Program-made: the position numbers and the translations under genes
Part shown: piece by piece, positions 9,067 to 48,829 of the stretch
Numbering within the stretch: the first letter of the stretch is position 1
Layout: each line of letters opens with the position of its first letter
The notes under the pieces: generated by a model
The model's database searches: none
Told to the model about the DNA's origin: nothing
The model's input: the letters and a program-made list of their open reading frames with translations, nothing else
DNA from: Octopus vulgaris
Lineage: Eukaryota
Length of the DNA: 64,000 bases
Direction of reading: 5' to 3'
Assembly (NCBI GenBank): GCA_951406725.2
Contig: OX597817.1
Location: 44,764,001-44,828,000 of the forward strand

Positions 9067-9107
9067 CTACAGACGCGTTTCAGGGTATTTGCCCTTTGTC
9101 AATGCAG
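9067..9107 (-). ncRNA. minimal type I hammerhead ribozyme, U3:A8 variant (left arm)
   Basis: CUGCA-UUGACAA-AGGG-CAAAUA-CCCU-GAAAC-GC-GUC-UGUAG. Confidence 0.75.
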
Positions 9108-9142
9108 AGTAGTCAGACCCAGTAGGTGTCGCTTCTGACTAC

Positions 9143-9185
9143 GCTGCATTGACAAAGGGCAAATACCCTGAAACGCGTCTGTAGC
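9143..9185 (+). ncRNA. minimal type I hammerhead ribozyme, U3:A8 variant (right arm)
   Basis: GCUGCA-UUGACAA-AGGG-CAAAUA-CCCU-GAAAC-GC-GUC-UGUAGC. Helix I 6 bp, helix II 4 bp, palindromic ACGCGU helix III, GUC triplet. Confidence 0.8.
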
Positions 9186-24579: not shown

Positions 24580-26820
24580 GTAGAAATATGTTACAAAAAG
24601 AAAATATAAAATACACGTGGAAATGTAAGGGGAAAATATGAAAAATCCACGAAAAAGCATATTGTAAATAAAAAAAGAAAAGGCTTTTTTTATGAAAGGT
24701 AACGACAGATATATACATTTAGATGGACTGAGGTAGTAATAAAAGTAAAAGTCATTATTATGAGATGATTAAAAAGTCAGAAAGAAAAGCATACCATGGT
24801 TTCTGCAAAGCTATTCATTGCTTTGAATAAACACCGGCTAATACACAGTGTCAGGTCTAATAGTTCCTGAGAAAAAAAAAACATTTGTAAGGGACGTAAG
24901 TGTTCTGGATTATTTGTAAGGGAGGTAAGTAGTTCTGGATTTAGTTATAGAGTTGTAATGTGAATGGCGTAGGGAGTGTATAGGGGTTAGTGGTTTTAAT
25001 TGATGGGTTAGTGGTGTTCTGTATTTAGTTGTGTGTTCATATTTAGTTGGGGGAGATATTTATTGATGGAAAATGCCTCTTAATTCAACCTTTGTTGCAT
25101 CGTGGTGTTCTGTGAACATTGATAGAAGGGGAAGATTTGGAAATTAAGATTAAGATTCCTGGCACGCATTTCTATGTGTTCACTAACCTGTAACTGTCTG
25201 TGGGTGGCGGATTTGCTCTTTGTGAATGGTGGTTTTTCGATGGAGTGCAATTTATGTTTGTCCAATATAGCGGTTACCACACCCTAAGCATGTCATGACA
25301 TAGAGTAGATTTTCAGAGGCGCAGGTGAAATTTGATTTGATCTTAAATATTTCTCCTTGTTTGAAGTGAAATTCTGAACCCTCCAAAAGGTGGGGGCATG
25401 TTCCACAGTTAGTACGCTCACATTTTTTCACTTTTGGCTCTGTTGTTAGTGGATACAGTCTTGCGCTGGTTAATATTTTTTTCAGTGACTTCGGTTGTTT
25501 TTTGCTTTTTATAATTTTGTATGAGCTTAAAATTTCGTTCATTTTGTCTGCTGTGAGGATGGGAAGATTTTGGGTGATAATGTTGAAGGCCTCGTTGTTT
25601 CTAGGGTTATGTGTGGAAATGTACGGGAGTATTTTTAATTCTGGTTTGCCTTAACATTTGTATATCTATTTCCTTAGCTCTTTTAATGCCTTCATTTATT
25701 AATGAGATTGGGTAATGTCTTTTAGTTAGTGTTGATCTAAGTTCAAGGAATCTTTGTTCACAAGTATATGTATCCGAAACTATGATACAGATTCTTTTCG
25801 CTAGATTAAAGGGTATATTAATTTTTCTGTGTTTGGGGTGGCAAGAGTTAAATAATAGGTATTGTTTAGAATCTGTGGGTTTATAAAAGATATCTGTTTT
25901 TATGTGGTTGTTAACTATTTTAATTAAGATGTCTAGTTGTTTACTGTTGTGTTCCATAGTGAATTGTATGTTGCTATGTATGTTGTTAAGCATTATTTTG
26001 AAATCAAGGAGTTTATCCATGCTGTCTTTCCAAAGTATGAAGTAATCATCCAAATATCTCTGCCAGTTCCCCTTTAAATAGCAATTAAAAGAGGCGCCAT
26101 ATTTTTCTAGTGATGATTGGTATAACCTGAGTTCTAGGTAACCTATTACAAGGTTTGCAATCACTGGAGCAGCTCTGGTTCCCATTGCAATTCCACATTT
26201 TTGTCGATAGTAAGTTGTATCGCACATGAAATAATTGTTCAGCAGGATGAATTTGAGTGCTTCAATTATAAAACTGTGGTTAATGCGTCCAGGGATCTCT
26301 TCTGGGTATTTTTCTAGCCAGATTGTGATTGATTCTATACCATAGTCGTGTGGGATATTGGTGTATAGATTCACCACATCGAAAGATACCAGCAGAGTTC
26401 CTTCCTTTACTGTCTTCGGGAGGTGGTTCAGCATGTCTAGGTCATCCCTGATAAAGCTTTTCACATATTTTAAAAACGTAAATATTTGAGTAATATGTCG
26501 AGGAAGTTGCTCAAACGGTGGGTTACACAAGAAGGGCCAGCTACGATGGGTCTCAGTTTGAGGTCAGTAGGGGGGGGGGGCATTAATGCATAGGCTTGTA
26601 GAGACTTTGCAGGCTTCACAAATGTGTGGATCTTTATGTATTTTGGGTAATTCGTAGAATAGACTAGGACTGTATTTAAAATTGGATAAATAGTCTATTT
26701 CATGTTTAGTGAGACCCCGCATTTTTGTTGCAAGATTCCCGATATTAAACTGTGTGTTGAAACAGATATTGTTGTATTTCGGGGTGGTATTCTTTTTAGC
26801 CAAAGAACCACAGGTACTAT
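24580..26820 (-). mobile_element. Penelope-like element, Neptune type (RT + Cys linker + C-terminal GIY-YIG endonuclease), frameshifted and 5'-truncated
   Basis: FYELPKIHK...LRPIVA, LVSFDVVNLYTNIP, YRQKCGIAMGTRAAP, WQRYLDD, TDIFYKPTDSKQYL; linker CERTNCGTC; NLLYVMTCLGCGNRYIGQT. Confidence 0.93.
24786..24824 (-). ncRNA. minimal type I hammerhead ribozyme, A3:U8 variant, in Neptune 3' terminus
   Basis: AAAGCA-AUGAAUA-GC-UUU-GC-A-GAAA-CC-AU-GG-UA-UGCUUU. Helix I 6 bp, palindromic ACCAUGGU, GUA triplet; helix II only 2 bp. Confidence 0.65.
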
Positions 26821-27073
26821 GTATTCGTTCTTTACTCTTTTATTACTGTAATTATATTGACTTATGTCAATTGTCCGGAAACTTTTCTCCATACATCAAT
26901 GACTTCTTCAGCGACACATTCCGTCCTTGGGTCTACCCCTACTACGCTTATGAACTAAGTGGAGAGCGAATATATAACGCGTGAGATTAGTTGGCATAAG
27001 AAACACAAAACAAATTACCGCCCGGAAATACAACAATGTACACACTCACACACACACAAACATACATACACAT

Positions 27074-27377
27074 ATGGGGATGCCTAAAAGACAAAGTCTA
27101 CACTATGAAACCTGCAACAGTCACTGATTTGAGAACAACCATTGAACAAGAATGCACACAAATATTAAACTAATTGGTTTTGTGATGTTTGCGATTCCAT
27201 TGCTTTGCTTTGTCATCGGTGCCTGGAGCGGAGCGTACGTCAGTTTGGAAACAGGTGTTGAATAACCAATAAAATCATGTCTGTAGATTCTATTAAATTT
27301 TGAAAATGAAATGTATTTTGATAAACATCTATTTTACGATTATTTAAAGTGTTTATACATTTTGGGGACACTCTGTA
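27074..27377. mobile_element. degenerate Tc1-like non-autonomous element
   Basis: End TACATTTTGGGGACACTCTG-TA resembles a Tc1 TIR; weak counterpart at 27074; internal DLRTTIEQEC-like remnant. Confidence 0.4.
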
Positions 27378-28374
27378 TATGCGTGCATATGTATGGCATA
27401 TAGATTACTACTTTTCTTTCAGACAAGTTAGCGTTGAGACAGTCGTGTCAACTTCCTTTTATTAAAGACGCTTCTAGTCTGGTGCAATGCCATTCCTAAA
27501 TTACGCATTCCAAACTGTTCTCAAAATTATAATCTAGAGCATTATTACTGCCGTCTATTATAGAAAGCAACAGAGAGTAGGAAAATGATTACAATTGAAA
27601 TCAACGTAAAGTTAAGTCGCTACAAATCTCTTAATTTATGTCATATTTACCGCGTCTGCATTTTGATTTCAGTGTTCATACAGCTATTAATTAGGCCCCA
27701 GAAGATATATCTAGGTATCTAGTTATATCTGGATTTCTAGATTGTTTGATGGTGCTATAAAGTAACATTGTATTCTGGCTAGTTATATATTATGTAGTAC
27801 TTGATAACATAATCGATTCGCTGCTTGCAGGCGCTTGGTTAATCGACAAGAAATCTTATACTGGTTTGCCCGTTCTAAGTTTCACAGACATAATATTGAT
27901 ACCGGCATTAACCAAAGCCTTTTTTTTTAGAATTCCTTACTACTCAAGGTATATTGCTTCAATATACAATCGGTAGCTTCTTATTCAGATGGTGATGTCG
28001 AAATATTTTCGATAATCTTATAGACTTAGGAAGGTTATGACAGAAACTTTAACATCAAACAATATAAAAATATATAGAGTTCTTCATAAAAATATAAAAA
28101 CCAAGCATAATTATAGCTTCTACACTCATATATGCATATGAGCGTGTATGTGCATATATATATATATATATATTTATATTATATAGTGGGTACTATTATT
28201 CAGAGGTACCGCACGCTAGGAAGGACTTTTGCAGTCAAAACTACTCAAATAAACAAATTGTACCGAAAGCAAAACTTCAAAGCAAGTCATTTAAAAACAG
28301 AATTTGGTTACATATCACCTGTGATTTCGCAATCAATGCAGAATATGCATTCTATGCTCTTCAGTGCAACGAAC

Positions 28375-28535
28375 TCTGAGTTCAAATTCCGAGTTCTGAG
28401 TTCAAATTCCGTCAAGGTCGATTTTACCTTTCATTCTTACGGGGTCGATAAATTAAGTACCATTTAAGCACTGGGAGCGATGTTATTGATTTACCCCTCC
28501 CCCAACTTGCGGGCCTTGTGCCAAAGTTTGAAACC
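28375..28535 (+). mobile_element. SINE family A fragment
   Basis: Duplicated TCTGAGTTCAAATTCCG followed by core and tail. Confidence 0.7.
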
Positions 28536-28538
28536 AAA

Positions 28539-28572
<34 letters not shown>

Positions 28573-28739
28573 AACGTAGTTGTATGCTGTCAACCTAATG
28601 TGACAGTCCCATGAGAGGGAATAATACTACTGCTATTTAGCCCTAGGAAGCAGCACCTATTCCCGCCGTCAGTGAAACATTTCCTGTGTCCTTATGTTTA
28701 CAAGGGGGAGATAAGCACCCCCACCAACCGAAGCCAAAA

Positions 28740-28782
28740 TCCAGAGACTAGTTTCTGCGTCATTGCTCGTCTTCAGTCTGGA
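28740..28782 (-). ncRNA. type I hammerhead ribozyme motif, C3:G8, eroded helix II
   Basis: UCCAGA-CUGAAGA-CGAGCAAUGACGCA-GAAAC-UA-GUC-UCUGGA. Helix I is 6 bp perfect, palindromic ACUAGU. Confidence 0.7.
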
Positions 28783-29149
28783 GTAGCATACCTTGCTAGT
28801 TGGAGATGCCTATCTAGCCCTTGTAAACATAACAATTCTAATGAAATACATTCACTGATTTCAAAAATAAAAATAATACATTTCTAAAACCTCTCATTTC
28901 TAAATCATCTTGCATCGCATCGCTCCCTCTCGGGTGGGATAAAGTACAACTGGGTGTGGTGCATCCCTCTTTGTGGATGTGTCTCGTGAGGGTCTTTTAC
29001 GATATGACCGTAGGTATATTCCATTTTCAGTCTCTATCATTTGTCATACACTCGATGAATACTGAAGGATTTCTGAGGTCTATCCAGCGACAATTCTAAA
29101 AAATACTGTGGATGACGTTAGATAGCCATGGGCAGAGAAAGTGCTTCAT

Positions 29150-29236
29150 ATACACACATACACACACACACACGCACAGAGAGAGAGAGAGAGGGAGAGA
29201 GAGAGAGAAATAGAGAGAGAGAGAGAGAGAGAGAGG

Positions 29237-29273
<37 letters not shown>

Positions 29274-29292
29274 TTCTCTATATATATATATA
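29150..29292. repeat. (CA)n(GA)n(TA)n compound microsatellite
   Basis: Direct reading. Confidence 0.9.
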
Positions 29293-31006
29293 AATTTCTG
29301 TACATATAGAAATGATTCCCTATATGAATTTGCTCTTCAGATTGGATGCTCCGATGAATCTATAAAATACTGCACCACACTCAGCTCTGATTGTAATGCG
29401 GCTCATAGCACAAACAGCTGTTAGCTAATGAAGTACTTCGCATAATATTCTCTTCCTTTATCATTCATTCAATTTCACATTACGCTCTGTACTCAACTAT
29501 TTCATTATTCTGAACCATATGTATATTGTGATCTAACGCCAGGTTAATACTATCGCTATACCTAAGCGAAACATTAATATGTGTGCATCGTGTGTGTGCA
29601 TCGGTATATCTTTATGCTTTCGTACAACAAGAAACGTACCCAAACTCGCGTGCATATATATAGGATAATACAATCCGAAACAAACACAATAAAGTCACTT
29701 TATTTAGAAAAGAAATAAAACCAATCATTAAGCGTAAGGATAACTCGCATCGACCATGGAACAACACCAACGTTGTCAGAATGGCTCTACTGGACTATAG
29801 TAAAAGATTAATCACACAAGAGCAAACAGGCTAAGATACATCACATCCTCACGGAATTCTAAGCAAGCGAATAATTTCTAATGCATTGAAATCTATCTAA
29901 CGGTCGAATAATATTTTTTCATGCCCGAAAGGTTTAGAAGTATTGTTCTATTTGGAGTCGGTCAACGGAACTAGAACGTTAAGTTATCTATTTTACTACT
30001 AAATCTAGTTGGCCTTAACATAGCTTATAACACACACTCAGACACACACACACAGACACACACACACAAACACACATACTGAAATATACACACAAACACA
30101 CATCCAACTATATATTATTAGGTATGTATGTATAGATATGAATTTGCGAGTTAAGAGTGCACACAACACATAAATACACTCACACACAAACACACACACA
30201 AAGGTAGACAAGCAAACATTCTTATATAGGGATATTTGTTTGTATTACATATATGTGTGTGTGTGTGAGTGTGTATGTGCAAGTGTGTGTGTATGTGAGT
30301 GAGTGAATGATTGAGTGTGCGTGTGCGTGTGTGTGTGTGCGTGTATCTTCAAGTCAGCAGTATATATATATATCGTTGTTGACAGTAAATAAAAGAACAA
30401 GACAATGGGATGTTGAATGAATACTGAAAAAGGCAATGAAGAAAGGAAATAGAAAATTTGAAATGGTTGAAGAGATTTATAGAAAAAAACAAAACAAAAA
30501 CGGAACGAAAGAATGAACAAAATAGTGGGAGTAAGAAGGGGCGATAATTAAGTGATGTTGCAGGGAAGCGAAAAGTGTGAAAGAGTGTGTTCTGTGAATC
30601 ATTTCTTGTTGAGGTAAATGTTGTGGTAAGAATCAAGTAGGCGTAAGATCGACGCTGTAGACAATGAACAAGAACTGAAATAGCAAAGGAAATCAGGCGA
30701 AAGATAAAGTATAATTGCTGAGAGGATCTATGATCATAGCCTGTATATTTAATTTCTTAATAGATTCAAAACAATGATAGAATACATAATAAAATCTGTA
30801 CTTTTATAATTTGTTATTATTTATGTAATCATTTTTCATAAATGAAATTTCTCTGGAAATACGAGTAAGAACTACTTTTTAGTAATCGCTGAAAGAAAGG
30901 TGAAAGTAGAATAAAAATCTTGGAATAAGATTGATTCTACATAAAACTAGTGATTTAGGGAAAATACACTTTATTTAGAGTTAATATTTTTCTTACCGGT
31001 ATTAAC

Positions 31007-31183
31007 GTGAAGTTGTTACCAGAAGTTGATACCAGAGGGCGTACACTCTTCTACCCTGATGTAATCTCTAGGGATACAGGCATCCAACAACAGGACCTCC
31101 GTAATGCTATGATGGACCGTGAAGTCTGGCGTAGCATAGTAAATTCCATTTCTCGAACAGGGTCGAACAATGATGATGATGAA
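31007..31183 (+). mobile_element. 3' end of RTE-type LINE
   Basis: RGRTLFYPDVISRDTG...DLRNAMMDREVWRSIV, a typical RTE C-terminus, followed by a (TGA)n tail. Confidence 0.7.
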
Positions 31184-31191
31184 GTTGTTGC

Positions 31192-31563
31192 TTATTTGTT
31201 TGTTTGTTTGTTGAGCGAAGCGGTCTTCGTGGGAGAAATTCGAAACGTGGTCCTTTGCTGTTCGTAAGACCCGCAGAAGAGAAAACAGGTCAACCCGCGA
31301 AACCGAGAACATCGACGGATGGATGAATGTACATCCAGGCTCAGCGGTTGCGTAGGAAGTCGGGGACAAGAAACAGGAAGAAAGAGTGAGAGAAAGTTGG
31401 AGCGAAAGAGTACAACAGGGGTCGCCATCACCCCCTGCCGGACCCTCGTGGAGCTTTAGGTGCTTTCGCCCAATAAACACACGCAGCGCCCGGTCTGGGA
31501 ATCGAAGCTGCAATCCTCCGACCGCGAGTCCGCTGCCCTAGCCACTGGGCCATTGCGCCTCCA
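31192..31563 (-). mobile_element. SINE family C with tail type 2
   Basis: Family C head and body, distinct tail ending in (CAAA)n. Confidence 0.85.
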
Positions 31564-31885
31564 CTGAAGTTGTTGCTGAACCAATTGAATTCTTCATCTT
31601 CGTATGAACAGTGTTTGCTGAAGACGTACGGATGTATCATTCATTTGCAGACTTAACGAATCAACATCTTCAATGTACAATGTTCTACTGAACTGAACAT
31701 ATTGCACTATTTATTTACAGATGTTTGCTTCGTATTTGCAAATCCCTCTCGCATCAACTATAATTTTCATCATCAGGGCTTCATGGAGTTGATACCAGTC
31801 AAGTGCTATAACATTCATCTGAGCGTATGAATTACTACAAGACGTTGCCTTTAGTTTGAAATGAAACTAATATATTTGAAAGTAA

Positions 31886-32275
31886 TCTATATATATAAAG
31901 CTGAAGTTGTCTGTGTGAGGCAGGTTTGACTGCCTTCAACTAACACTATCTCCTCCGAGACTCTGCAGCGCAAGTTGACCAAAATTGAGAGTATGATAGA
32001 AGAAGGCTTGCTCTTCCTTCCGTAGAAGATAAAATTCAAATCGGACTATGTTAAGACCATAAATTATTTACATCAAAAAGGTGCTTATTTTCTATGAACA
32101 TCCTTATATTTTATCATTTTTTGACTGCTGTGTCGCCATTTCTCGGTGTATTTCAACCGGAAAAATGTTCCCTTAAAGAGAATAACAAGCTACATAATGC
32201 AACATGTTAAATTTTCAAAAATTCTAATTCTAAAGTGTCGAAACAAACCCGAGCAATGCCGGGCGATACTGCTAG
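31886..32275 (+). mobile_element. non-autonomous Helitron
   Basis: 5' TC (A|TCTATATATATAAA), 3' CTAG|T, subterminal hairpin CCCGAGCAATGCCGGG at 32248-32263, inserted between A and T. Confidence 0.82.
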
Positions 32276-32849
32276 TTATGGAATAAAACGGAAAAGTAAG
32301 AATTCACCTCTCATTATGAATTCATGGTTTCCATTAGCCAACAAAGTTCTTAAGACCAAAGCAAGTTGCCCATTGCATAAGTACTTTAGGTATATACTTT
32401 GTCGTAGCACTTTGATACTGACAAACGAAAATCAACGATGGTAAACCGTTTAAATAAGAGTTTTTGTATATTTCTGTTTCAGAAATAAAACCTTAATTAC
32501 ATTGACCTTCTTTAATTTTGACAGTGAGTATTCAAGTAGTTTGATGAATTTAGATACATGTTCAGAAACTACAATGTATTTAGATGAGAGCTGCATTGAG
32601 TTATCCTTTCAGTAAACTCCTGTAGCAGTATGAACGTGACACAGAATGTAGCAATGCTTAATTTGAGAGGTACGATAGACCATCGGGTGTTTCCATCCAA
32701 TTTCACTCACAAATTTTAAGCCGATCTGAAGTCATTAAAAAAGATACTTGCTCTAGATTGGAGACTCTTTAACTCAGTGGGTCCATGCAAATTTGAATTT
32801 GTACGGCTTGTTCATTGTTTATAACCATGTGATCATCGAGCTCCCTTAT

Positions 32850-33267
32850 ATTTTTCTTTATTGCCCACAAGGGGCTAAACATAGAGTGGACAAACAAGGA
32901 CAGACAAACGGATTAAGTCGATTACATCAACTCCAGTGCGTAACTGGTACTTTATCTATCGACCCCGAAAGGATGAAATGCGAAGTCGACCCCGGCGGAA
33001 TTTGAACTCAGAACGTAACGACAGACGAAATACTTATTTCTTTCCTACCCACAAGGGGCTAAACACAGAGGGGACAAACAAGGACAGACAAAGGTATTAT
33101 GTCGATTACATCGACCCCCAGTGCGTAACAGGAACTTAATTCATCGACCCTGAAAGGATGAACGGCAAAGTCGACCTCGGCGGAATTTGAACTCAGAACG
33201 TAACGGTAGACGAAATACCGCTAAGCATTTCGCCCGGCGCGTTAACATTTCTGCCAGCTCGCCGCCT
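32850..33267 (-). mobile_element. SINE family A, dimer
   Basis: Reverse complement of the dimeric consensus. Confidence 0.88.
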
Positions 33268-33319
33268 ATTTCGAGCTCCCTTATATGCTGCAGCCAGTCT
33301 TTGGAACGCTCCCCTTGAC

Positions 33320-34135
33320 GTTCTTGCAGTTAGTCGTCGGCATTGGTCTCTAATATATGTCACGTGTAGCAGGTTTGCACTGTTGTTATCTGTCCAGTCA
33401 TTAATTGTTTCGAACCAAGATTTTCTCTTTCTCCTTTTCGACTTCCATCAACTGTATTGTGAAGAATAGCTTTGGACAGCATACTTAACCATACGATGTA
33501 AGCTCTTGTCTTGTTACCTCCTCAAGTAGATATTCCTATCTGTCACCATATTTGTTGACTGGTTGCCTGGTAAAGGCTTTCATTTTGTGCTCTGTGTAAG
33601 AGATGCGTAGCAGCCTTCTGAATGCTTGGCTTCTTCGCTCTGTTAGGTGTAATAGTCCAGTCCTCACATCCACACAGAAATATTGAACTCACCAGAGATT
33701 TGTCTATTCTGTGTCTTGCGAAAAATCTAATAGAATTGCTTATCCATATGGTGTTCAGCTTCATCATGGCAGCAGGAGGAGCTAAATTGAACCTAGTTAT
33801 CTCTTTTCGACGTTGTCGACTTCGTCAAGTCTACCGCCATTTAACTTAATGTTGGTCGCTTGTTTTGGCTGCAATTGTTAATCAGGATCTTGCTCTTTTC
33901 TGGGATGATCTCCATCCCGTATATTCCTGATAGTTTTTCCTGTCTGGTGGTGAGTTCCTTTTTCTTCCTTAGTTTCCTGTCACTGCTTCGTAGCAGCTCA
34001 ATATAATTAACAAAGCGCATTTCTTCTCTAGACAATTATAACCTACAAGCTTCCCATAGATGAGTGTAGAATCTCCAGTTATGAACAATATATAATATAT
34101 AATATCCTGTGGCAATATTATTTTCATGAATTTTA
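33320..34135 (-). mobile_element. degenerate RTE-type LINE RT fragment
   Basis: YGMEIIPEKSKIL and KSLVSSIFLCGCEDWTI (RTE LYGCESWT motif). Confidence 0.7.
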
Positions 34136-35737
34136 AATTTGCTATACTGTATTAATTCATTCCGACGTTCATTTATTTTAGAACTTGCCTGTCCCACGAC
34201 ATACATCTATGTAAGTCCCTATTTAACTTTTCCCAGTACTTTTGTGTATCTTCGAAGATTTGTGGCTAAGGTACAAAACATCATCGTCGTTAAAATCCTC
34301 CTCCTCTTCCTCCTCCTCCTCCTCCTCCTCATCATCATCATTGGGTTTTCTTCCATTTGTTGTTGAGTACCTGCCTGGAACCTAGGACAGTTTTCCTATT
34401 GTTTCCTCTTGTTCAGTTTCCTATTGCTTCGCTCCCACACGGGGGCTAGTCCGGCGACTGTAACTATGCTCTGGTCTTATAGTATCAAACTCCATAGTTC
34501 TCCTGTCCGGCTTCCTTTTGTCATTTTTGTGACAGCGGCTTCGAAACAGTCTCAGCAGTTTCTTGTGCTTTCCCGCCTAAAGTGTCCAATGCATTTAACT
34601 TACAGTTTATAATGTAGAAGCTATAGTTTATAAATGGGACGGACAATTCATTTTATATCTAATACCTTATTTCTAACATTAATTTCAGTTTTTATTAGTT
34701 TGACTCTACTATAAAACTCTTGTATAATATCTCCTTCACTGTATGATGTATGTGAACAGTTTCGCCTACATCTGGATATTTTTATGGTTGGCACTGTTAT
34801 AATGATCTAATTTCTGTGTCTCTATATAATTTCATATTCTCATTTATAGTTAACTTTCTCCTTTTATAGGGCCTTTGGGGCATATGTCTAATCCCAGACA
34901 CATTTTATGTTCTGGTTGAATTTATGAACAATTTTTATTAGGTCATCAACTAGGTATTATACCTTGTAAATGCTATTACTACACCCAGATGAGATAGTTT
35001 CTAGCTTATCTATAGCATCTAAGCATGGGTTGTTTTATTCAATAGATTTGATAATGTGATCAGAGAGACGTTTCTGTCTTGAAGATTCCTGTTCGTATTA
35101 GTATAGGACTGGATTTGATGATTCTATCTTTGCTTTGCAGTGATATTCTTGCTTTGTATTTTGTTTTGTTATGGGTGATGCACTCTGTAAGCTTCTTCGC
35201 TGCTATGTAATTCAGAAAGTGTCTAGAATACAAAAGTGAGGAATACTAGTCAGACAAGGCCATGTTTGATGACATCATTTTAATGTTTTCGATAAAGGGC
35301 CACGTATCGGGTGTGTAGCCCTGAACTCGCCGATGTTTCTATTTCGGAATATTAACGCTGGTCCTTTCTCGAACAACAATAAAAGTGTTGTCTCCTCAGC
35401 TGGTCAATGAATATCCTTCCTACTTAATTCTGAGATCTAGTTATATGCTACAAATAAGCTGTAGGTACCTTCCTAATTTTGGAGCTTTCCAGTTGATCGA
35501 ATTTCTTAAGGAGTTGTTGAGTTCATTACTGGCCATATTCAGTCATATTTGCGCTGCTACTATATATTTTAACTCCTTGTCTGATTGATCTTTTGCGCCT
35601 TATTTCGTTGTGCTGAATAATTTGTTCCTATATTCTCACACAATATACCTCATGTTCCGTTGATGTTAGAAGGTTTTGCGGCGTTATGTATTATATTAAT
35701 TCACAAAATATTATTATTAGAGAAATGAATTTGACTC

Positions 35738-36152
35738 TCTCTCTTTCTCTTTACTTGTTTCAGTCACTTGACTGAGGCCATGCCGGAGCATCGCCTTTAG
35801 TTGAGCAAATCGACCCCCAGGACTTACTTTTTGTAAGCCTAGTACTTATTCTATCGCTTTATATTGCCAAACTGCTAAGTTACGGGAAGTAAACACACCA
35901 CCAGCGGTTGTCAAGCGATGTTGGGGGTACAAATACAGATGCACAAACATACACATACATACATAGATACATATATACATATATACATATATACGACGGG
36001 CTTCTTACAGTTTCTGTCTACCAAATCCACTCATAAGGCTTTGGTCAGCCCGAGGCTATAGTAGAAGACACTTGCCTGAGGTGCCACGCAGTAGAAATGA
36101 ACTCGTAACCATGTGGTTGGTAAGCAAGCTACTTACCACACAGCCACTCCTA
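35738..36152 (-). mobile_element. SINE family B, full length
   Basis: Reverse complement of 52266-52670. Confidence 0.88.
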
Positions 36153-36164
36153 TCACCAATCGGT

Positions 36165-37100
36165 TGTGGGTCCGTCTTTGGAAGTCGGATTGTTAAATTG
36201 TACTTTGACGTGATTCATGGTTACACTCGATCCTTCAAAGGTTTCCTTGTCACTTCTCTCCTGTATGTTTTCGTTTTGGAGCGACTGCCGCAGTGACAAT
36301 GTAGAAAGACCTCCCCGTCATAGACTCAGACAGGTCGGATGAAAAAGTGAGGGATCCGATAAACGAACAGCAGTAGAAATTTACCGAAGTACACGATGAT
36401 CAGAATGATTTTGTGGGGTTGCAGTTCAGCAGCTAGGTGGGCAAGTTCATACCGGGCTAGCATCGATTTTTGATCGCAGTTGGTTTTATATGGAACCATC
36501 TTAATTCTCTAGTTACCTGGATCTAGCGCTACTCCTTGGTAGATAAGAATTAGGAAGAAAATGTGTTTAGGGAAGGGTGGCAGCTTTACTCAGAAATGAG
36601 CCAATGAATTGTGGGCTTTGAGAGGTTGAGAAGAAACCGTAGTTATATACTAATGCAGATCATCCTAGTTATTCCAGAAAACAGTTAATCAAAAGGAAGT
36701 GTCTGCTCTTCCAGTTGATATAGAAGTGAGAGTTGCCCGCCGATCAAGAAATAAATCTGGAAATATCAATCACAACATAGTGGCGTTGCGATGCTTTAGC
36801 TTGCCTTACGTTGGTGCACTCTGAGGCTGACGGACTTGTAGAAATATACTGACCTTTGGGACGGTTACAACGACAACAAAGTCAAGGCAAAATAGTGTAG
36901 GCACTTTTCAAGCGACATCCCTTTCTGTATCTTATCCAATAGATCGAAGATTAATTGTAGATCAGGTGTAGCCCGATGTTAGATGTGTGACTTCTAGAAT
37001 GAGACCAAACATACCTATCAGCTGTACAGTTTCCTCTTCTAGGAAAAAATCTCGCGCATTATATAAAGATTCAGGGAAGAATACGGACGAAATGCTCTTT
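36165..37100 (-). mobile_element. possible highly degenerate Penelope-like C-terminal fragment
   Basis: Remnant VYDGEVFLHCHCGSR...KDRV resembles the GIY-YIG C-x-C region; heavily disrupted. Confidence 0.25.
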
Positions 37101-37228
37101 GTATGTCAAGTAGTTTCTACTGGATGATTTTCAAGTCTGTACTATAGCCAGTTGAAGAAGTTGGACATTACCCGTTGAGACAAAGCTATACAGGCAATGA
37201 AGTGTCAATCCCTGATACGTTGTGGACT

Positions 37229-37535
37229 GTGGAGGCACATGGCCTAGTGGTTAGAGCAGCGGATTCGCGGTCGAGGGATCGTGGGTTCGAATCTGAGACC
37301 AAGCGTTGTGTGTGTTTATGAGCAAAACACCTAAGCTCCACGCGGCTCCGGCAGAAGGTAATGGCAAATTTCTGCTGACTCTTTCGCCACAACTTTCTCT
37401 CACTCTTTCTTCCTGCATCTTCAAGCTCACCCGCGACGGACCGGCGTCTCGTCCAGGTGGGAAACCTATACATCAAGGAAACCGGGAAACCGACCCTTAT
37501 GAGCCAGGCATAGCTCGAGAAGGAACAAACAAACA
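37229..37535 (+). mobile_element. SINE family C with tail type 3
   Basis: Family C-like head (GGTTCGAATC B-box); distinct tail ending GAAGGAACAAACAAAC. Confidence 0.82.
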
Positions 37536-38417
37536 TTGTTGACGTGTGAGTTTGTGCTGAACTTTTCCTGTCACTTTTGGAAGAAATCTGATTATCATTC
37601 TTTCCTTTATGAAAATAGACGTACCACATTCATTTGGCAAAGGTAGGCGAATACTTTGACTGGGTGATGTTTATGGCTAAAGGAGTTATATGGTTGATTA
37701 GTCTGAAATGTTTGAAGAGAGAACATTTCATCACTAGCCATTAACTCAGCTTAATTTAATTACCACCTGAAAAGGGATAGTGAGAATAGAGAAGACGTTG
37801 CCAAGGTTGCTGCGGTTTACGAAAACTGTGTTAGAGTGACATGATAGGAAATGTTGAACGAGCATACTCGAAATATGCATTTCTATGAGGAGCAAACCTG
37901 CCACATTTGATAGATTAGTGAAGGTGCAGTAATCTGTTTGTATCGAGGTCCCTAGAAGTACCGCGGAACTTTTTGAGGTGAAATATTTATCATTATCCTG
38001 TTTTTTTGTTGATCTTATTTTTATTCGATATAGACCACCAGGTTTTTTCGTTTTTATCTCGTCTGTGTATTTTCCGCAGAACCTTGGGTTCTGCTAACAA
38101 GTTAAATATAACCTCATCATCATTGCGGGCTGCAACAGAGCAGCATCAGCAGCATCAATACTGCCACCATAAACACCAGCACCAGCACCAGCACCACGAG
38201 CATCTTCATTGTTATAATATCATCATCATCATCGTCATAGTTGTCGGTGCGTTTTCAAATGTCATATAAGCCATTGCTTCCTTCTAAGTATGCCTGGATA
38301 TCTGAGTTTTGTCTTTACAGGTGTTGATTTGTGTTGATTTCTTATATGTTGTTCTTTGTTTCTGTTGTTACCTTATAGCTTCTCCTTTTTTTCACATGGC
38401 ATATAAACACTATAAAC

Positions 38418-38733
38418 AAGATCACCGTGATCACCGTGACCGACCAGGCTATCAGATGCTGCAACACATCGCTGGTCACAATGCGCTTTGCTTTGTTTTA
38501 GCCTTCAAATGACGCCACCTTGCTGGCTAAACGAGCAGACCAACAGAAGAAAGACTGAGAGAAAGTTGTGGTGAAAGAGTACAGCAGGGATCACCGCCAC
38601 CCCCTGCCGCAGCCTCGTGAATCTTAATGTGTTTTCGCTCAATAAAAACTCACAACGCCTCGGTCTGGGAATCGAAACCGCGATCCTACGACCGCGAGTC
38701 CGCTGCCCTAAACACTGGGCCATTGCGCCTCCA
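38418..38733 (-). mobile_element. SINE family C with tail type 1
   Basis: Matches 11719-12037. Confidence 0.85.
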
Positions 38734-39037
38734 CATAAACAATATACTGATACTGAATGATAGCTGAAATTTGATTTCGTATTTGTGCATACAGGGTCGG
38801 GGATTGCCTTCATTGCCTGTATAGCTTTGTGTCAATGAGTAATGCCCAACTACTTTAGCTGGCTGCAGTCCTGACTTGAAAATCATCCAGTGGAAACTGC
38901 TTCACATACTATGTATTTTCATTAGTTAATTGTTTATTTAGATAATTGTTTCCTACGTGCGTGCCGTTTGAGCTCTGTTAAGTGTTTTAGTGCTCTGTAT
39001 ATACTGTGTGATTCCCTATATATTGTTGGGTAACAAA

Positions 39038-39265
39038 AGGCGGCGAGCTGGCAGAAACTTTAGGACGCCGAGCGAAATGCGTAGCCGTATTTCGTCTGCC
39101 GTTACGTTCTGCGTTCAAATTCCGCCGAAGTTGACTTTGCCGTTCATCCTTTCGGGATCGATCAATTAAGTACCAGTTACGCACTGGGGTCGATAAAATC
39201 GACTTAATTCGTTTGTCTGTCCTTGTTTGCCCTCCCTGTGTTTAGCCCCTTGTGGTTAGTAAAGA
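39038..39265 (+). mobile_element. SINE family A monomer
   Basis: Consensus match; flanked by a direct repeat TATATTGTTGGGTAACAA (39019-39036 and ~39272-39289), a likely target-site duplication. Confidence 0.88.
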
Positions 39266-39562
39266 TATACATATATTGTTGGGTAACAAGTGCATATGTT
39301 ATAAGTTTTGTAGTTTTGTGTATTGAATAATATTAGTGGGTTATCAATAGACAATAGATTGGCATAGCAGTGAATTGGCGTATTATCATGCATTATCAGA
39401 TTCAGCACTTTATGCATGAAATTCAAATCCCGATGGATTCTACTACGTCTTTCATCATTTTAAGGTCGAAATATACAGTACCTGTTAAATACTAGTCTCG
39501 ATTTACTCAACTCAACGCTTCTCCAGATATCCGTCCTTGTGCGAATGTTATAAATATTATCT

Positions 39563-39790
39563 AATTCTTTACTACCCACAAGGGGCTAAAGACAGAGGGG
39601 GCGAACAAGGACAGACAAATGGATTCAGTCGATTACATCGACACCAGTGCGTAACTGGTACTTAATTAATCGACTCCGAAAGTATGAAAGACAAAGTATA
39701 CTTCGGAGGAATTTGAACGCGGAACGTAGCGGAAGACGAAATACGGCTACGCATTTCACTCGGCGTGCTACCGTTTCCACCAGCTCACCG
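39563..39790 (-). mobile_element. SINE family A monomer
   Basis: Reverse complement of the consensus. Confidence 0.85.
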
Positions 39791-40588
39791 ACTCTGTTAT
39801 AAAAAATCATCGTCTGATGATTATGCAAGTAAGTTGTGTGTCATTCGCCTGCATGTTGATAACGTACAGTATAGACTCACTGAATGTTTGGTGCCGTGTA
39901 CGGTTCTACTTACAGAAATGAGCAATGCTTATATAAGAATAGTCGTTGCGTTAGTCACTTTAATGTTGAATTCCATTCCCAAAAGGGTTTATTGCAAATG
40001 TTTCGTATCATATTTCAGAAAGAATGTAGAAGAAAAGTAGATAATTTTAATTAAAAAGAAGCTAATCTTGCGCAGATGTGTATTACACACAATATATTTT
40101 CATATATAGTTCTTTCAAGCCAAGCATATGCTGCTTCTGAGATATTTGCGTAGACTGGAAACCTCCATGTTAAATTTTTATCGGAATTACTAATAGAGGC
40201 AAGAACTTATAAAATGAAATCCTATGGGGTCTTGAAGTTTCATAATCCATTTTACTTGTCTCTCAGTATAAAATCTTCTTTGTATTAATGATTTTATCCA
40301 GAAAACGATTTTTTTTGCACATGTGCTTGCAATGTAACTATAGTATTTTGTTTAAATATTTTATTCCTTAGAAGGATTACGAAACCTTGAAGAGCATTAT
40401 GCTTTCTATAATGCTCCATCTGAAAGGTTTCGTTGCTACCATCATACACATCCACTGGTCTGCACACGTTATGCTCGGAAGAAAATTGTAGTGTGTGCAC
40501 TGTGTTATTGAATTCAAAGTAGTCACTAGGCAATTTAGTGAACTGAGTGGAGACTACCGAGTACTTATATTTTATATATATCTTTTTT

Positions 40589-40985
40589 AAGGCGGTGAGC
40601 TGGCAGAAACGTTAGCACGCCGGGCGAAATGCGTAGCCGTATTTCGTCTGCTGCTACGTTCTGAGTTCAAAAACGCCGAGGTCGATTTGCCCTTCATACT
40701 TTCGGGGTCGATTAAATAAGTACCTGTTACGCACTGGGATCGATATAATCGACTTAATCCATTTGCCTGTCCTTGCTTGTCCTCTCTGTGTTTAGCCCTT
40801 TGTGGGTAGTAAGGAAATAGGTATTTCGTCTGCCGCTACGTTCTGAGTTCAAATTCCGCCGAGGTCGACTTTGCTTTTCATCATTCGGAGTCGATAAATT
40901 ACACACCAATTGCGTATTGGATCAGTCTAATCGCTTGGCAACCCCACTCCGCAAAATTTCCGGCCTTGTGCCTAGAGCAGAAAAG
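40589..40985 (+). mobile_element. SINE family A, dimer
   Basis: Same architecture as 1125-1499. Confidence 0.88.
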
Positions 40986-41087
40986 ATTATATACATACTT
41001 TTGTTTATTTAATCATCGTTATCCTAATTTGTTCTCCAACTATTATTTGTATTCTTACTTTTATAATCCGCATCGTATATTCTTTTA

Positions 41088-41289
41088 TTATTTTGTTTAA
41101 GTCATTTGACTGCGACCATGCTGGACCCACCGCCTTTAGTCGAGGAAATCGACCCCAAGACTTATTCGTTGTAAGCCTAGTTCTTATTCTATTGGCCCCC
41201 TTTGCCGAACCGCTAAGTTACGGGGACGTAAACACACCAGCATCAGTTGTCAAGCGATGTTGGGGAGACAAACGCATACAGAGAAACAA

Positions 41290-41331
<42 letters not shown>

Positions 41332-41490
41332 TCGACGGGCTTCTTTCAGTATCAGTATCAAATCCACTCACAAAGCTTGGGTCAGCCCGAGGCTATAGTA
41401 GAAGACACTTGCCCAAGGTGCCACACAGTTGGATTGAACGCGGAACCATGTGGTTGTTAAGCAATCTACTTACCACACAGTCACAACTGC
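41088..41490 (-). mobile_element. SINE family B, full length
   Basis: Consensus match with internal (CA)n(TA)n. Confidence 0.85.
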
Positions 41491-41647
41491 ACCTTGGTGC
41501 CCCAAGTGTTCACTTTCAAGACTTTACTCCCTGAGAGTGTTTTGGTCAGTAGTGTCATGTATAGCGACCAGAGAGTATTCGGGGTCTATTAATAATATGG
41601 CATTTTATTTCTCGTTGCTCTATTCAATCAGCTGGCAAAATGAGTAG

Positions 41648-41825
41648 TCCTGCATTTCAAAGGGCGAGCCTCGTCACATTCTGTGTCACACTGAATGTCC
41701 CTGAGAATTATGTTAGGGGTACACGTGCCTGTGGAGTGCTCAACCACTTGCACAACAATTTCACGATCAGACTGTTTCGTTGATCGGTTCAACTGGAGCC
41801 CTTATCGTCGTAACCGACGGAGGAC
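41648..41825 (+). mobile_element. solo copy of SINE family C tail type 4
   Basis: Matches 42350-42526. Confidence 0.7.
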
Positions 41826-42147
41826 CAATAATATGGATACTAGTTATCAACATAAGATTTTAGACAATCAATTGGTAGTTACTGATCTACCGTGTCGAAT
41901 ACAGTCGAAAGCGAGATAAGGTTTCACAGAAAATTACCTCCGAATGGCGCTGCGGACACTCTATAACTGAAGTATCACTGAACAGTCCCTGCTACCTATT
42001 ACCCAATAGAAATTGTACACATTTCCTTGTACACTTTTCCTTGTAAATAGCTGATAACAGTTACAAATACTTATATGATTAAACAAACGGTTTGCTGAAT
42101 TGCTCTGTATCGAGGGGTAGATTTCAACCACAGATATAACTAGATGG

Positions 42148-42526
42148 TGGAGGCGCAATGGCCCAGTGGTTAGGGCAGCGGACACGCGGTCGTAGGATCG
42201 CGGTTTCGATTCCCAGACCGGACATTGTGAGTGTTTATTGAGCGAAAACACCTAAAGCTTCACGAGGCTCCTGCAGGGGGTGGTGGTGAACCCTGCTGTA
42301 CTCTTTCACCACAACTTTCCCTCACTCTTTCTTCCTGTTTCTGTTGTACCTGTATTTCAAAGGGCCAGCCTTGTCATAATCTGTGTCACGCTGAATCTCC
42401 TCGAGAACTACGTTAAGGGTACACGTGTCTGTGGAGTGCTCAGCCACTTGCACGTTAATTCCACGAGCAAGCTGTTCCGTTGATCGTATCAGCTGGGACC
42501 CTCATCATCGTAACCGACGGAGTGCG
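42148..42526 (+). mobile_element. SINE family C with tail type 4
   Basis: Family C head and body; tail CTGTATTTCAAAGGGCCAGCC...CGTAACCGACGGAG. Confidence 0.85.
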
Positions 42527-43954
42527 AAAAATAAAAATTACTAGTTGATATTCTTATAATGTCATACTGGCTTATGTTAAAGATACTCAGCACGAAGAGA
42601 ACATTTTCAATGTCTGAACATTCTATAAAACGCACCATCACCACACAGCTATTCCGACGTATTGTAAATAACTTGATAGAGCCATAGAGTGATTGACGTT
42701 AACTGAATCAAAGATAGAATTATTTACTGATATAAAGGATTGATTGAACTAATTGGCGCGAAACAGATTTACGCCTCTGATTAATTATTAAGCAAGGCAA
42801 AATATTGTTTAATTTGACTGCATTGTAAGAAATGGTGGGGGATAATTAATTACTTTGTATGAAGTGGAAAAAAATATTTCGCTAAGATTCAATTATATCA
42901 TCGATTTTTCTTTCGAATATATTTCTTTTGTATTATTCTATTCCTTTCGGATGTACAATATCGTTGTCCGCCATGTTGCTTTGGTGAGTAACACACACAA
43001 ACAGACACGTCGGCATGCGCACATACACATACTGCAGACACATTGAGAAAAATCATTAAGAAAGGCCTGGAGATAGTAGAAAGAAAGTTGCATTTAGATA
43101 AATGGCTTATCTCTAAAGCGTAACAGAAAAATCCATTAGGGCAACAATCAGATGAGTTCGTTAATAGTCAATATCACATAGAAATATGCAGAAGTTACAG
43201 ATCTTGTAATGTTAACGCAGGAGGTGGAGATACCTTGGAATGAAATATTTTAAATACTGACGCTAAATATATTGGATGTTTTGCACAATGAGAAGATATT
43301 AGTTAATATCCGTAGTTTCCTATAGATTTACATGGCTTTTACATTCGGGAACAAAACTACAACAGGAAGCAAACTGTATTAAATGTTTTTACGCCATTCT
43401 AGCCGGAAGGTCTTGTTGCATCGACGTAAGAATCTGTGTAATATTCTATGTCTTTGCCAATATTGTTCACAACAATGTATAACATCTCATGCACAAACAC
43501 GACTATAATTTTGTAATTCAAGAAATGCTAGACATAATTTCATCATGTATTGGATTGTATACAAATCTAACCAGCCTTCAGCACGAAATAATTTTATGTC
43601 AGTTGAAAGTAGAGGAAAAAATATATATAATATTAATTCAACGATTTAAAAGTGAAAATAAGCAGCATTTTAATTACTCACTGCTATTGCTATCTGATTA
43701 AATTGAGAGAAGATATTAGAATAATATTTATACTCGTGTAAAAAAACTAACAATTTACAAATTTGTTGATGTATATTAAAAGCTTGTGTCGGTTTGACTG
43801 TACTTGTGGAGAACCATATCGTTGCTATGGTAGGAATAAACATAATTTGTTCATTATATGGTTACATTAATTCTCTCTTTACCGTTCACCATCCCGTGTC
43901 TCTCTTCCGCTCTCTCTCTCTCTCTCTCTCTCTAGCTCGGTATACATACATACG

Positions 43955-44009
<55 letters not shown>

Positions 44010-44145
44010 TTATACATACACACACACCTATATATACTGTATTTATTGATACATATATACATATTTTCATGTTGTATATAAATGCATATCTGTCTATCGT
44101 TATATATATATATAAGAAAGTTGGTTTGTGAAACCACGTGGTTGA

Positions 44146-45360
44146 ATATATAGAAAATCGTAAAAAGTGAAAAAAACTACAGAAGGCTTGTTTTAAAAGG
44201 TTAAAAAATATATATTTGAGTCAATATGTCTGAAGAATATTATAAATTTTTTTCTTACAATGACATAGTTTAGAAGAACCTTGCAAGAAGGATATGCACA
44301 ATAGTGTCAGAACAAAATACCAGGAACTTTAGACTGCAAGAACTCAAAAACACCCTAATTGACAGACATTACCCAGCTCAACTTATAGAGGATGGGATCA
44401 GACGTGCAACAGAAATCAACATAGAAACTTTAAGAAAAGTTCAACACAACAACACACCTTCCCCAAAAATACTACCTTACATATCTACATACAACCCCAG
44501 AAACAAAGAAGCCATCATCACCCAGAATTTACCAATACTTCATAAGGACCCCAAATTAAAGGAAATTCTATACATACACCAAATCATTAAAAGCTACAAA
44601 CAACCTAAATTCTCACAAAAGGAAAATTGTTTTCTGAAATTACGGATGCAAAAGTAAAAAAAATGTGGTAGATCGAACTGTGCAACATGTCCAAACCTGC
44701 TAGAAGGATCAGAATTCCTCTTCAAAGAGGGACAGAAATACAAGATCAAATCTAACTTTACTTGTGCCTCTGAAAACATAATTTAAGTCATAAAATGCTC
44801 GGGCTGCCACCAAGACTACGTGGGATCAACGGGACTATCACTCAGACGTAGATGCACACTGCATCGACAACAGATTACCTTTTAGTGAGCACATTGAGAA
44901 ATGCGTAAAGCAACTACTACCACAATTTTTAATCTTTCCATTTTACCAATGTGCGATCGGATCATCAACACAAATTAGACTAAACAAGGAAACATTCTTC
45001 ATTGAAAAGTACAAGCCCAGACTTAACCATTCCAACATACTGATACAGAGAAATTCACACCAAGGGAAAGGCAAAAAATTTTAAGCGATTATCTCCCTTA
45101 CACCGGAAGAAATTACTCATTACCTCCCCTTATTCAGAACTCTTTTCAACATAAACATAACGATAACTCTGCTCAACATAAACATAACGACGTAAGAAAT
45201 TTGAAAAGCTAAACGCGAAACCGGTCTTTCTTCTAAACTATGTCATTGTAAGAAAAAAAATTTATAATATTCTTCAGACATATTGACTCAAATATATATT
45301 TTTTAACCTTTTAAAACAAGCCTTCTGTAGTTTTTTCACTTTTTACTATTTTCTATATAT
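44146..45360 (+). mobile_element. 5'-truncated Neptune-type Penelope element with inverted terminal repeat
   Basis: NLARRICTIVSE...RHYP...LPYISTYNP; CGRSNCATCPNL; SNFTCASENII*VIKCSGCHQDYVGST. 44146-44278 is the reverse complement of 45228-45360; (TA)n nearby on both sides. Confidence 0.92.
45194..45232 (+). ncRNA. minimal hammerhead motif, U3:A8 variant, in Neptune 3' terminus
   Basis: AAGAAA(U)-UUGAAAA-GC-UAAAC-GC-GAAAC-CG-GUC-UUUCUU; palindromic ACCGGU; one unpaired U at the base of helix I. Confidence 0.6.
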
Positions 45361-48492: not shown

Positions 48493-48497
<5 letters not shown>

Positions 48498-48829
48498 TGC
48501 AGCGTGGAAGGTGTTTATAAGCCATTTAAGAAACACACAAAAGCCGTTCGATTCACTTCAACATTTGAGTTTAATTTGTCAAAATACTTTCGTCGCTAAA
48601 ATCCGCGACCTGTTCACTGTCAAAAATCCGTGCTGCACGAATTTTTGTCAGTGAACAGGTCGCGGATATTAGCGACGAAAATATTTTGACAAATTAAACT
48701 CAAATGTTGAAGTGAATCGAACGGCTTTTGTGTGTTTCTTAAATGGCTTATAAACACCTTCCACGCAGCAATTGTTTTCGTTTCAGCACACGATCTCAGA
48801 TCAAATTACTTGCTATCCGAGTACATCTC

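What the first reader, a model, noticed from the sequence alone, without database searches (positions are those of the whole stretch)
24786..45232. Two related Neptune elements carry positionally homologous HHRs with covarying sequence
Seen: the elements at 24.6-26.8 kb and 44.1-45.4 kb share protein motifs (FNLAKRIC/NLARRIC, SNFTCASEN) and a TTACCTCCC motif after the ORF. Their HHRs differ in sequence but not in structure: helix I AAAGCA/UGCUUU vs AAGAAA/UUUCUU, core A3:U8 vs U3:A8, helix III ACCAUGGU vs ACCGGU, and both have a 2-bp GC/GC helix II. Inference: structure-preserving covariation indicates selection on an ultra-minimal (~39 nt) ribozyme; A3:U8 is the least familiar variant.
Basis: partly seen in the sequence, partly recalled or inferred. 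Interest (0 to 1): 0.75.

Follow-up and report, generated by a model that had tools for sequence, protein, structure and literature searches.

The report
Penelope hammerheads abandon canonical core pair
Two broken jumping-gene copies each carry a tiny hammerhead RNA motif of a known kind, and across their thousands of relatives in this genome the usual C-G core pair is replaced by A-U, U-A or G-C while the fold is kept, which likely reflects selection on a weak self-cutting RNA whose cutting is untested.

Summary
Mostly confirmed. Both elements are 5'-truncated Penelope-like retrotransposons (RT, CX4CxxC linker, C-terminal GIY-YIG; Neptune/Nematis type), each with a 39-nt type I hammerhead motif in its 3' pseudo-LTR. 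A3:U8 and U3:A8 are family states, not copy decay. One core pattern matches 4,296 sites genome-wide (control 5). In sampled rows A3 goes with U8 in 98/100, U3 with A8 in 62/66, G3 with C8 in 62/85; canonical C3:G8 appeared once. Close relatives in metagenome contigs keep C3:G8 in the same fold, and covariation across 18 motif types far exceeds shuffled and slid controls. Younger subfamilies spread with GUAAA in place of GAAA, and copy 5' ends do not mark the cut site. Most likely a slow, dimer- and protein-dependent ribozyme that is not needed for each insertion. PLE hammerheads, U3:A8 and 1-2-bp stem II are published; natural A3:U8 and G3:C8 were not found in searchable papers (Lunse 2017 unavailable). 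The scan noted A3:U8 before in another genome.

The parts
24580..26840 (-). Element 1: 5'-truncated, frameshifted EN+ Penelope-like retrotransposon ending in a (TA)n tract
   Evidence: tblastn of full-length homologue P0003 covers 26713-25041 at 41-53% identity; 5' limit approximate, from family copies; 3' end from sequence
25607..26563 (-). RT core and thumb reading frame (318 aa; contains FNLAKRIC)
   Evidence: RVT_1, E 4e-7; homologues are about 730-770-aa RT + GIY-YIG proteins
25041..25650 (-). Linker with CX4CxxC and C-terminal GIY-YIG endonuclease, broken by stop and frameshift (contains SNFTCASEN)
   Evidence: translations; P0003 residues 553-751
24920..24928 (-). TTACCTCCC motif; in the family it lies about 80 nt upstream of core position 3; role unknown
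24786..24824 (-). Minimal type I hammerhead motif, A3:U8 core, extra A before GAAA, ACCAUGGU palindrome; predicted cut between 24792 and 24791
44114..44278 (-). Inverted 5' arm of element 2: pLTR piece (97.8% to 45228-45360) plus the terminal tail; begins one base after the predicted cut site
   Evidence: tail matches the end of family copy L105
44279..45360 (+). Element 2 direct arm: RT thumb, linker, GIY-YIG (broken) and 3' pLTR ending in (TA)n
   Evidence: P0003 residues 491-751 at 44277-45027; 68% DNA identity to element 1 over 354 bp of coding sequence
45120..45128 (+). TTACCTCCC motif (a second, TTATCTCCC, lies about 30 nt upstream)
45194..45232 (+). Minimal type I hammerhead motif, U3:A8 core, 2-bp helix II, ACCGGU palindrome, unpaired U2.1; predicted cut between 45226 and 45227

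Best explanation
Both motifs are the pseudo-LTR hammerheads of one clade of Penelope-like retrotransposons whose families keep helix I, a palindromic helix III and a Watson-Crick 3:8 pair while swapping C:G for G:C, A:U or U:A, and they likely act as slow ribozymes that would fold as dimers between the two pLTR copies of a tandem transcript, probably with help from the element's protein. Shown: the element type, family-level cores, compensatory changes, tandem layout with two motifs 3,468 bp apart. Inferred: dimer folding, cleavage, protein help. Inferred from the damaged but amplified subfamilies and from insertion ends: cleavage is not required for each insertion, so selection on catalysis is weak or intermittent; the two window copies are probably impaired versions.
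For: Family-level cores: A3:U8 in 26 of 26 parsed element-1 relatives; the U3:A8 motif recurs in element-2 relatives. Genome-wide CCGG-class pattern 4,296 vs control 5: A3 1,269, C3/G3 172, U3 2,855 by subtraction; hand counts on listed rows: A3 with U8 98/100, U3 with A8 62/66, G3 with C8 62/85, C3 with G8 1/15. Metagenome relatives (46-49% protein identity) carry C3:G8 with the same tiny helix II and CCGG (L339 in both pLTRs, L340). On the rooted 79-copy tree the 3:8 pair needs at least four double changes by hand parsimony, including G:C to A:U inside one well-supported lineage; 2.1:1.1 goes A:U to G:C; helix III goes CCGG, CCGCGG, CCATGG, CCAATTGG. 18 motif types: 92.8% of cells paired vs 64.2% shuffled, covariation score 0.748 vs 0.189 shuffled and at most 0.215 slid; 3:8 paired in 18/18 (one a U-G wobble). 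Hammerhead dimer is more stable than two monomers in 17 of 19 motifs. Tandem unit with two motifs in L261. Literature: weak dimer cleavage of PLE min-HHRs (PMC4209133); an anole PLE hammerhead cleaves only with protein and is dispensable for insertion in vitro (PMC11167929); U3-A8 covariants reported active (PMC3088659).
Against: No cleavage data. 48 of 75 element-1-clade rows have TAAA where GAAA belongs (hand count; 167 strict matches vs control 0), and half of element 2's family lacks A1.1 (36 of 73). A small subfamily has U3-G8 (4 of 66 rows; L249, L251). Pair 10.2:11.2 is broken in 3 of 18 types. In the one test not selected on the motif, core columns were not clearly more conserved than flanks: lineage 1, 4 internal changes in 9 columns vs 0.71 per flank column (79 of 97 copies kept); lineage 2, 0 vs 0.47 with 70% of flank columns also unchanged (36 of 38 kept). 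Only 1 of 73 arms starts exactly at the cut site. Element 1's monomer prefers another hairpin, and its dimer target (-18.6) is above the dimer minimum (-25.4 kcal/mol). The shuffle control ignores relatedness, and two of its five measures were not above shuffles; the motifs were picked by a pattern that fixes most core letters; the dimer energies have no shuffle control.
Confidence: 0.6

Rival explanations
1. The fold is kept for a job other than cutting: it is a protein-binding or RNA-dimerising signal at the front of the element's RNA, and catalysis has been lost in much of the clade.
For: GUAAA subfamilies amplified and kept gaining helix I and III changes that preserve pairing; 33 of 73 element-2-family arms begin between 70 nt upstream and 4 nt downstream of the cut site, mostly near the front edge of the motif, not at the cut; canonical C3:G8 is almost absent; Cervera and De la Pena leave non-cleavage roles open.
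Against: The 3:8 pair is a tertiary pair of the active conformation (PMC3884650) and it covaries; 14 columns including U4 G5 A6 A9 G12-A15 U16 are invariant in the 18 types, although partly by selection of the rows; the GUAAA state can be read as a one-base register shift that keeps a G12 and a GC/GC helix II; the youngest subfamilies show GAAAA (lineage 1) and a paired A1.1 (lineage 2) again.
Confidence: 0.25
2. The motif is an efficient ribozyme whose cut defines the 5' end of the transposing RNA.
For: The inverted arm of element 2 begins one base after the predicted cut; one further arm begins exactly at it.
Against: Only 1 of 73 arms starts at the cut and most short arms include uncut upstream sequence; inversion points in other loci are scattered; no reads ended at the cut in the anole element (PMC11167929).
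Confidence: 0.1
3. The motif is an inherited relic drifting neutrally; apparent covariation is common descent plus my pattern choice.
For: Weak within-lineage conservation signal; broken states fixed in subfamilies.
Against: Positions 3 and 8 and helix I were free in the patterns yet pair in four combinations; the two window 3' UTRs share no long alignment (best 47 bp at E 0.001) while the fold persists back to relatives from other hosts.
Confidence: 0.05

Closest known systems
Minimal type I hammerheads (min-HHR) in pLTRs of metazoan Penelope-like elements; Cervera and De la Pena 2014, PMC4209133 (read parts 1-2 of 4 of the text and part 1 of 3 of supplement 2; supplement 1 not searchable)
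   Same: Position in the pLTR, type I topology, palindromic short helix III, G10.1-C11.1, occurrence in Neptune elements, thousands of dispersed copies in variable families, a U3-A8 variant (Schistosoma).
   Different: Their consensus has a long helix II (5 or more bp) and an extra base after A9; here helix II is 1-2 bp, there is no base after A9, C3:G8 is nearly absent, A3:U8 and G3:C8 are common, and one lineage has a 5-nt strand before helix III (GGAAA, GUAAA, GAAAA).
Small PLE hammerhead variants that cleave as dimers; Lunse, Weinberg and Breaker 2017, PMC5785218 (not held; seen only as a citation and a review sentence in PMC6765202; that it covers very short stem II is recalled, not read)
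   Same: Small size, PLE association, palindromic stem III, dimer model.
   Different: Cannot be stated; the paper or its supplements may already list A3:U8 or G3:C8 cores.
Natural hammerhead core variants; Perreault et al. 2011, PMC3088659 (passages read)
   Same: Natural U3-A8 covariation; stem II of one or two pairs; an insertion in the GAAA strand (U13a) is tolerated.
   Different: No A3:U8 or G3:C8 in the passages seen; the insertion here lies after G12 (GUAAA), not after A13; their fast short-stem-II ribozymes use a pseudoknot, which I did not identify here.
PAc (Poseidon, Anolis) hammerhead; Frangieh et al. 2024, PMC11167929 (read parts 1-2 of 4)
   Same: pLTR hammerhead with a 3:8 pair; engineered G3:C8 partly rescues; protein-assisted, not needed for insertion in vitro; tail at one end.
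   Different: Poseidon clade, canonical C3:G8, overlaps the start codon; here the ORF homology begins about 1.5 kb downstream of the motif in tandem locus L261.

Membership tests
EN+ Penelope-like element | RT followed by C-terminal GIY-YIG endonuclease in one ORF | tested here: met
   RVT_1 hit; homologues carry PF00078 and PF01541; both copies align to P0003 in that order
EN+ Penelope-like element | pLTR from partial tandems, inverted 5'-truncated copy, tail at one end | tested here: met
   inverted arm with tail in element 2; tandem unit in L261 and L339
Neptune clade | CX2-5CxxC linker upstream of GIY-YIG, CCHH in the EN, (TA)n targets (PMC8557442, passages read) | tested here: met
   CX4CxxC in both translations, CxxC inside the GIY-YIG core with downstream H residues; (TA)n at the ends
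Neptune clade | RT phylogeny with reference Neptune rather than Nematis elements (both share the linker) | not tested
   no named reference sequences were available from the tools
PLE min-HHR (Cervera and De la Pena 2014) | Type I core in the pLTR with palindromic helix III and G10.1-C11.1 | tested here: met
   G10.1-C11.1 in 17 of 18 types, A15.1-U16.1 and C-G in 18 of 18; not met cleanly in window element 1 (extra A)
PLE min-HHR (Cervera and De la Pena 2014) | [quoted passage not shown] | tested here: not met
   helix II is 1-3 bp and G10.1 follows A9 directly
Hammerhead ribozyme | Consensus core C3 U4 G5 A6 N7 G8 A9 / G12 A13 A14 A15 U16 H17 | tested here: not met
   positions 3 and 8 are A:U, U:A or G:C; all other core letters present in the CCGG class; GUAAA in 48 of 75 lineage-1 rows; no Rfam hammerhead hit
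Hammerhead ribozyme | Watson-Crick pair between positions 3 and 8 | tested here: met
   17 Watson-Crick and 1 U-G in 18 types, four pair types
Hammerhead ribozyme | Site-specific self-cleavage after H17 | not testable with these tools
   no raw RNA reads were available; insertion ends do not mark the site

The most novel reading that the evidence does not exclude
One retrotransposon clade has walked a 39-nt hammerhead through all four Watson-Crick pairs at 3:8, left the canonical C:G behind, and in one lineage re-registered helix II so that a new G12 and a five-base GUAAA/GAAAA strand replaced GAAA, while the element kept spreading. The dated ladder of subfamilies would be a natural mutational series showing either unreported active cores (A3:U8, G3:C8, 12a insertion) rescued by the element's protein, or a ribozyme fold retained as a non-cutting RNP signal.
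Probability: 0.3. Interest if true: 0.65.

Novelty: new variant of a known kind. Interest (0 to 1): 0.42.

Why it matters
What hammerheads do in Penelope-like elements is an open question (PMC8557442, PMC11167929). This clade supplies ordered natural variants, from canonical outgroups through three swapped cores to apparently damaged but successful forms, so one panel of cleavage assays could tell whether the element selects cutting or only the fold. It also shows that descriptors requiring CUGANGA miss thousands of motifs per genome (about 4,300 in one pattern class here), which bears on reports of PLE groups lacking hammerheads. The two window copies themselves are ordinary dead insertions.

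Tried and rejected
Rfam scan: no hammerhead family matched. Monomer folding gave no signal over shuffles. Idea that element 2's inverted arm records cleavage: rejected as a rule, 1 of 73 arms at the cut; ends more than 4 nt downstream of the cut could not be seen in that sample. A looser pattern for six-base helix III loops was too noisy (702 vs control 319) and was dominated by an unrelated repeat. The 26-row alignment A3 was misaligned 3' of helix III and was not scored; 18 CCGG rows were realigned instead; the 7-row alignment A5 was not scored. RNA: no RNA holder listed and no raw reads; contigs of four runs show the element-2 family and its A1.1 variant in several coded organisms but cannot show ends or expression. 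Relatives from other hosts: a strict scan found the motif near the ORF in 5 of 27 close loci, all C3:G8; a relaxed scan of 22 loci added four more C3:G8 motifs (L343, L348, L420, L423) and some doubtful hits; many contigs end too soon. Literature searches for natural A3:U8 gave nothing relevant (octopus search). Lunse 2017, Przybilski and Hammann 2007 and Arkhipova 2017 were not held, so novelty of A3:U8 and G3:C8 is unproven. A splice-acceptor reading of the TTACCTCCC region fits lineage 1 but not L101, L102, L106 and was not pursued.
Full report
Observation. Both 39-nt motifs are present. Element 1 has an extra A between GC-UUU-GC and GAAA. Element 2 has an extra U between AAGAAA and the core, so U2.1 faces U1.1.

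Element type. P0001 matches RVT_1; its longer homologues are about 730-770-aa proteins with RT and GIY-YIG, and P0003 aligns along both copies. The CX4CxxC linker, (TA)n flanks, inverted arm and one-sided tail fit Neptune or Nematis as defined in PMC8557442 (passages). I could not separate the two. Locus L261 holds a partial tandem with two motifs 3,468 bp apart around an ORF; metagenome locus L339 has the same layout.

Family state or decay. The nearest relatives of element 2 repeat its motif, including the unpaired U. In 73 arms taken from 70 loci among 646 matches of a downstream pattern, 36 lack A1.1, 33 have it and 4 are unclear. For element 1, 26 of 29 closest relatives parsed; all 26 have A3:U8, but only 3 have its GCA-GAAA state. 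That A is probably CpG decay of GCG-GAAA (inference).

Genome-wide core pairs. TGANNAG-N5-8-CGAAACCGGTH matches 4,296 sites against 5 for the reversed control. A3 accounts for 1,269, C3 or G3 for 172, U3 for 2,855 by subtraction. My hand counts on the listed rows (first 100 of each search): A3 with U8 98/100; U3 with A8 62/66 and with G8 4/66; G3 with C8 62/85; C3 with G8 1/15. The mismatched G3 and C3 rows mostly carry helix II strings of the A:U and U:A families, so they look like single-copy mutations (inference). Canonical C3:G8 is thus nearly absent from this class.

Outgroups and tree. Metagenome contigs with 46-49% protein identity carry C3:G8 with a 2-3-bp helix II and CCGG (L339, L340); 5 of 27 close loci gave a strict hit, all C3:G8, and a relaxed scan added four. 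More distant PLE loci include single A3:U8, G3:C8 and U3:A8 examples (L396, L381, L363, L434). A tree of 79 copies with a parseable motif, built on endonuclease DNA and rooted on these relatives (a 154-copy FastTree agrees), shows three ladder-like lineages. Lineage 1 (support 99.4; holds element 1) starts with G3:C8 and changes to A3:U8; a second lineage has A3:U8; lineage 2 (element 2) has U3:A8. By hand this needs at least four double changes; the node joining the last two lineages is weak (40.3), which does not lower the count. In lineage 1, pair 2.1:1.1 goes A:U to G:C, one G:C pair of helix I is then lost from both strands, and helix III goes CCGG, CCGCGG, CCATGG, CCATTGG, CCAATTGG. In lineage 2, pair 10.2:11.2 goes U:A to C:G.

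Covariation count. On 18 CCGG-class motif types, 92.8% of 180 cells pair (shuffled 64.2%), 59 cells show double changes (19.4), and the covariation score is 0.748 (shuffled 0.189; slid at most 0.215); the 3:8 pair shows A:U 7, U:A 5, G:C 3, C:G 2, U-G 1. Two of the five measures did not exceed shuffles, the shuffle ignores relatedness, and the rows were chosen by a pattern that fixes most core letters but leaves 3, 8 and helix I free.

Evidence against strict selection on cutting. Of the first 100 of 651 rows for the lineage-1 pattern, 75 belong to the lineage; 48 have TAAA, 22 GAAA, 4 GAAAA, 1 AAAA (hand count). A strict TAAA pattern has 167 matches against 0. On the tree the strand goes C-GAAA, G-GAAA, G-TAAA, G-AAAA; this can be read as loss of G12 or as a register shift that makes a new G12, a GC/GC helix II and a five-base strand. 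Perreault et al. report a tolerated insertion in this strand at another position (U13a). The A1.1-less subfamily amplified, and a young nested subfamily (L151, L152, L158) has A1.1 again; recombination was not excluded. In a test on copies chosen by protein only, core columns changed 4 times in 9 columns against 0.71 per flank column in lineage 1 (79 of 97 copies) and 0 against 0.47 in lineage 2 (36 of 38; 70% of flank columns also unchanged): weak. Of 73 arms, 33 begin within -70 to +4 of the cut site, 17 run beyond the 550-base limit, and only 1 begins at the cut; short lineage-1 copies also start at the front of helix I. Earlier notes on other genomes (e1-9871955, e1-9827386) described the same and prompted the larger sample. 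Whether this marks an RNA start or RT stalling is unresolved.

Folding. Monomers do not beat shuffles, and element 1 prefers a hairpin that traps helix I. The double-hammerhead is more stable than two monomers in 17 of 19 motifs and equals the dimer minimum in 4, including element 2; any palindrome favours dimers, so this is modest support.

Mechanism. Shown: type, position, family-level cores, compensatory change, tandem layout. Inferred: the tandem transcript carries two motifs that pair through helix III and cut slowly after H17, probably with the element's protein, as shown for the anole element, where cutting was dispensable for insertion (PMC11167929); PLE min-HHR dimers cut weakly in vitro (PMC4209133). 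Covariation of the 3:8 pair, which belongs to the active conformation (PMC3884650), is the main reason to prefer residual catalysis (0.6) over a purely structural role (0.25).

Novelty. PLE hammerheads including Neptune, natural U3:A8, and 1-2-bp stem II are published. Searches for natural A3:U8 found nothing, but three key papers were not held and supplement 1 of PMC4209133 could not be searched. The scan reported A3:U8 in another genome (e1-9564841) and U3:A8 in a third (e1-7786987); I did not check those. Verdict: a new variant of a known kind; the value lies in the ordered series of natural cores, not in the two copies.

Noticed in passing
window 48493-48775: 283-bp fold-back (96% arm identity) of another repeat; each arm holds a hammerhead-like motif with G3:C8, an extra base after A9, a long helix II and an AUAU palindrome (core at +48651); similar copies in L096, L102, L126, L232.
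   Followed up: partly
window 28776 (-): Hammerhead-like motif with canonical C3:G8, 6-bp helix I and CUAG palindrome but a poor helix II; no PLE protein match nearby.
   Followed up: partly
window 24920-24928 (-), 45120-45128 (+); L033, L082, L303, L123, L308, L093, L152, L348, L361: A TTA(C/T)CTCCC-like motif lies 77-86 nt upstream of core position 3 in lineages 1 and 2 and in two metagenome relatives, further upstream (94-162 nt) in others, and was not found in L339, L340, L343, L157; candidate promoter or RNP element, untested.
   Followed up: partly
L201, L205, L208: 13 of 100 rows are a separate motif family (AUGAAGA core-like string, CCA(U)UGG palindrome) with no match to element 1.
   Followed up: no
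L125: L127: 3' UTR: An old G3:C8 subfamily has GAUA in place of GAAA.
   Followed up: no
L249, L251: Small lineage-2 subfamily with U3-G8, a possible intermediate between core pairs.
   Followed up: partly
L419-L441: Penelope-like ORFs on short contigs of bacterial and archaeal MAGs, most likely animal DNA binned in error.
   Followed up: no
window 9071-9180; 5571-6668 (-): A 110-bp near-perfect palindrome that scores above the MIR399 cut-off, probably as a generic hairpin; and a 365-aa RT frame with no match to the PLE proteins.
   Followed up: no
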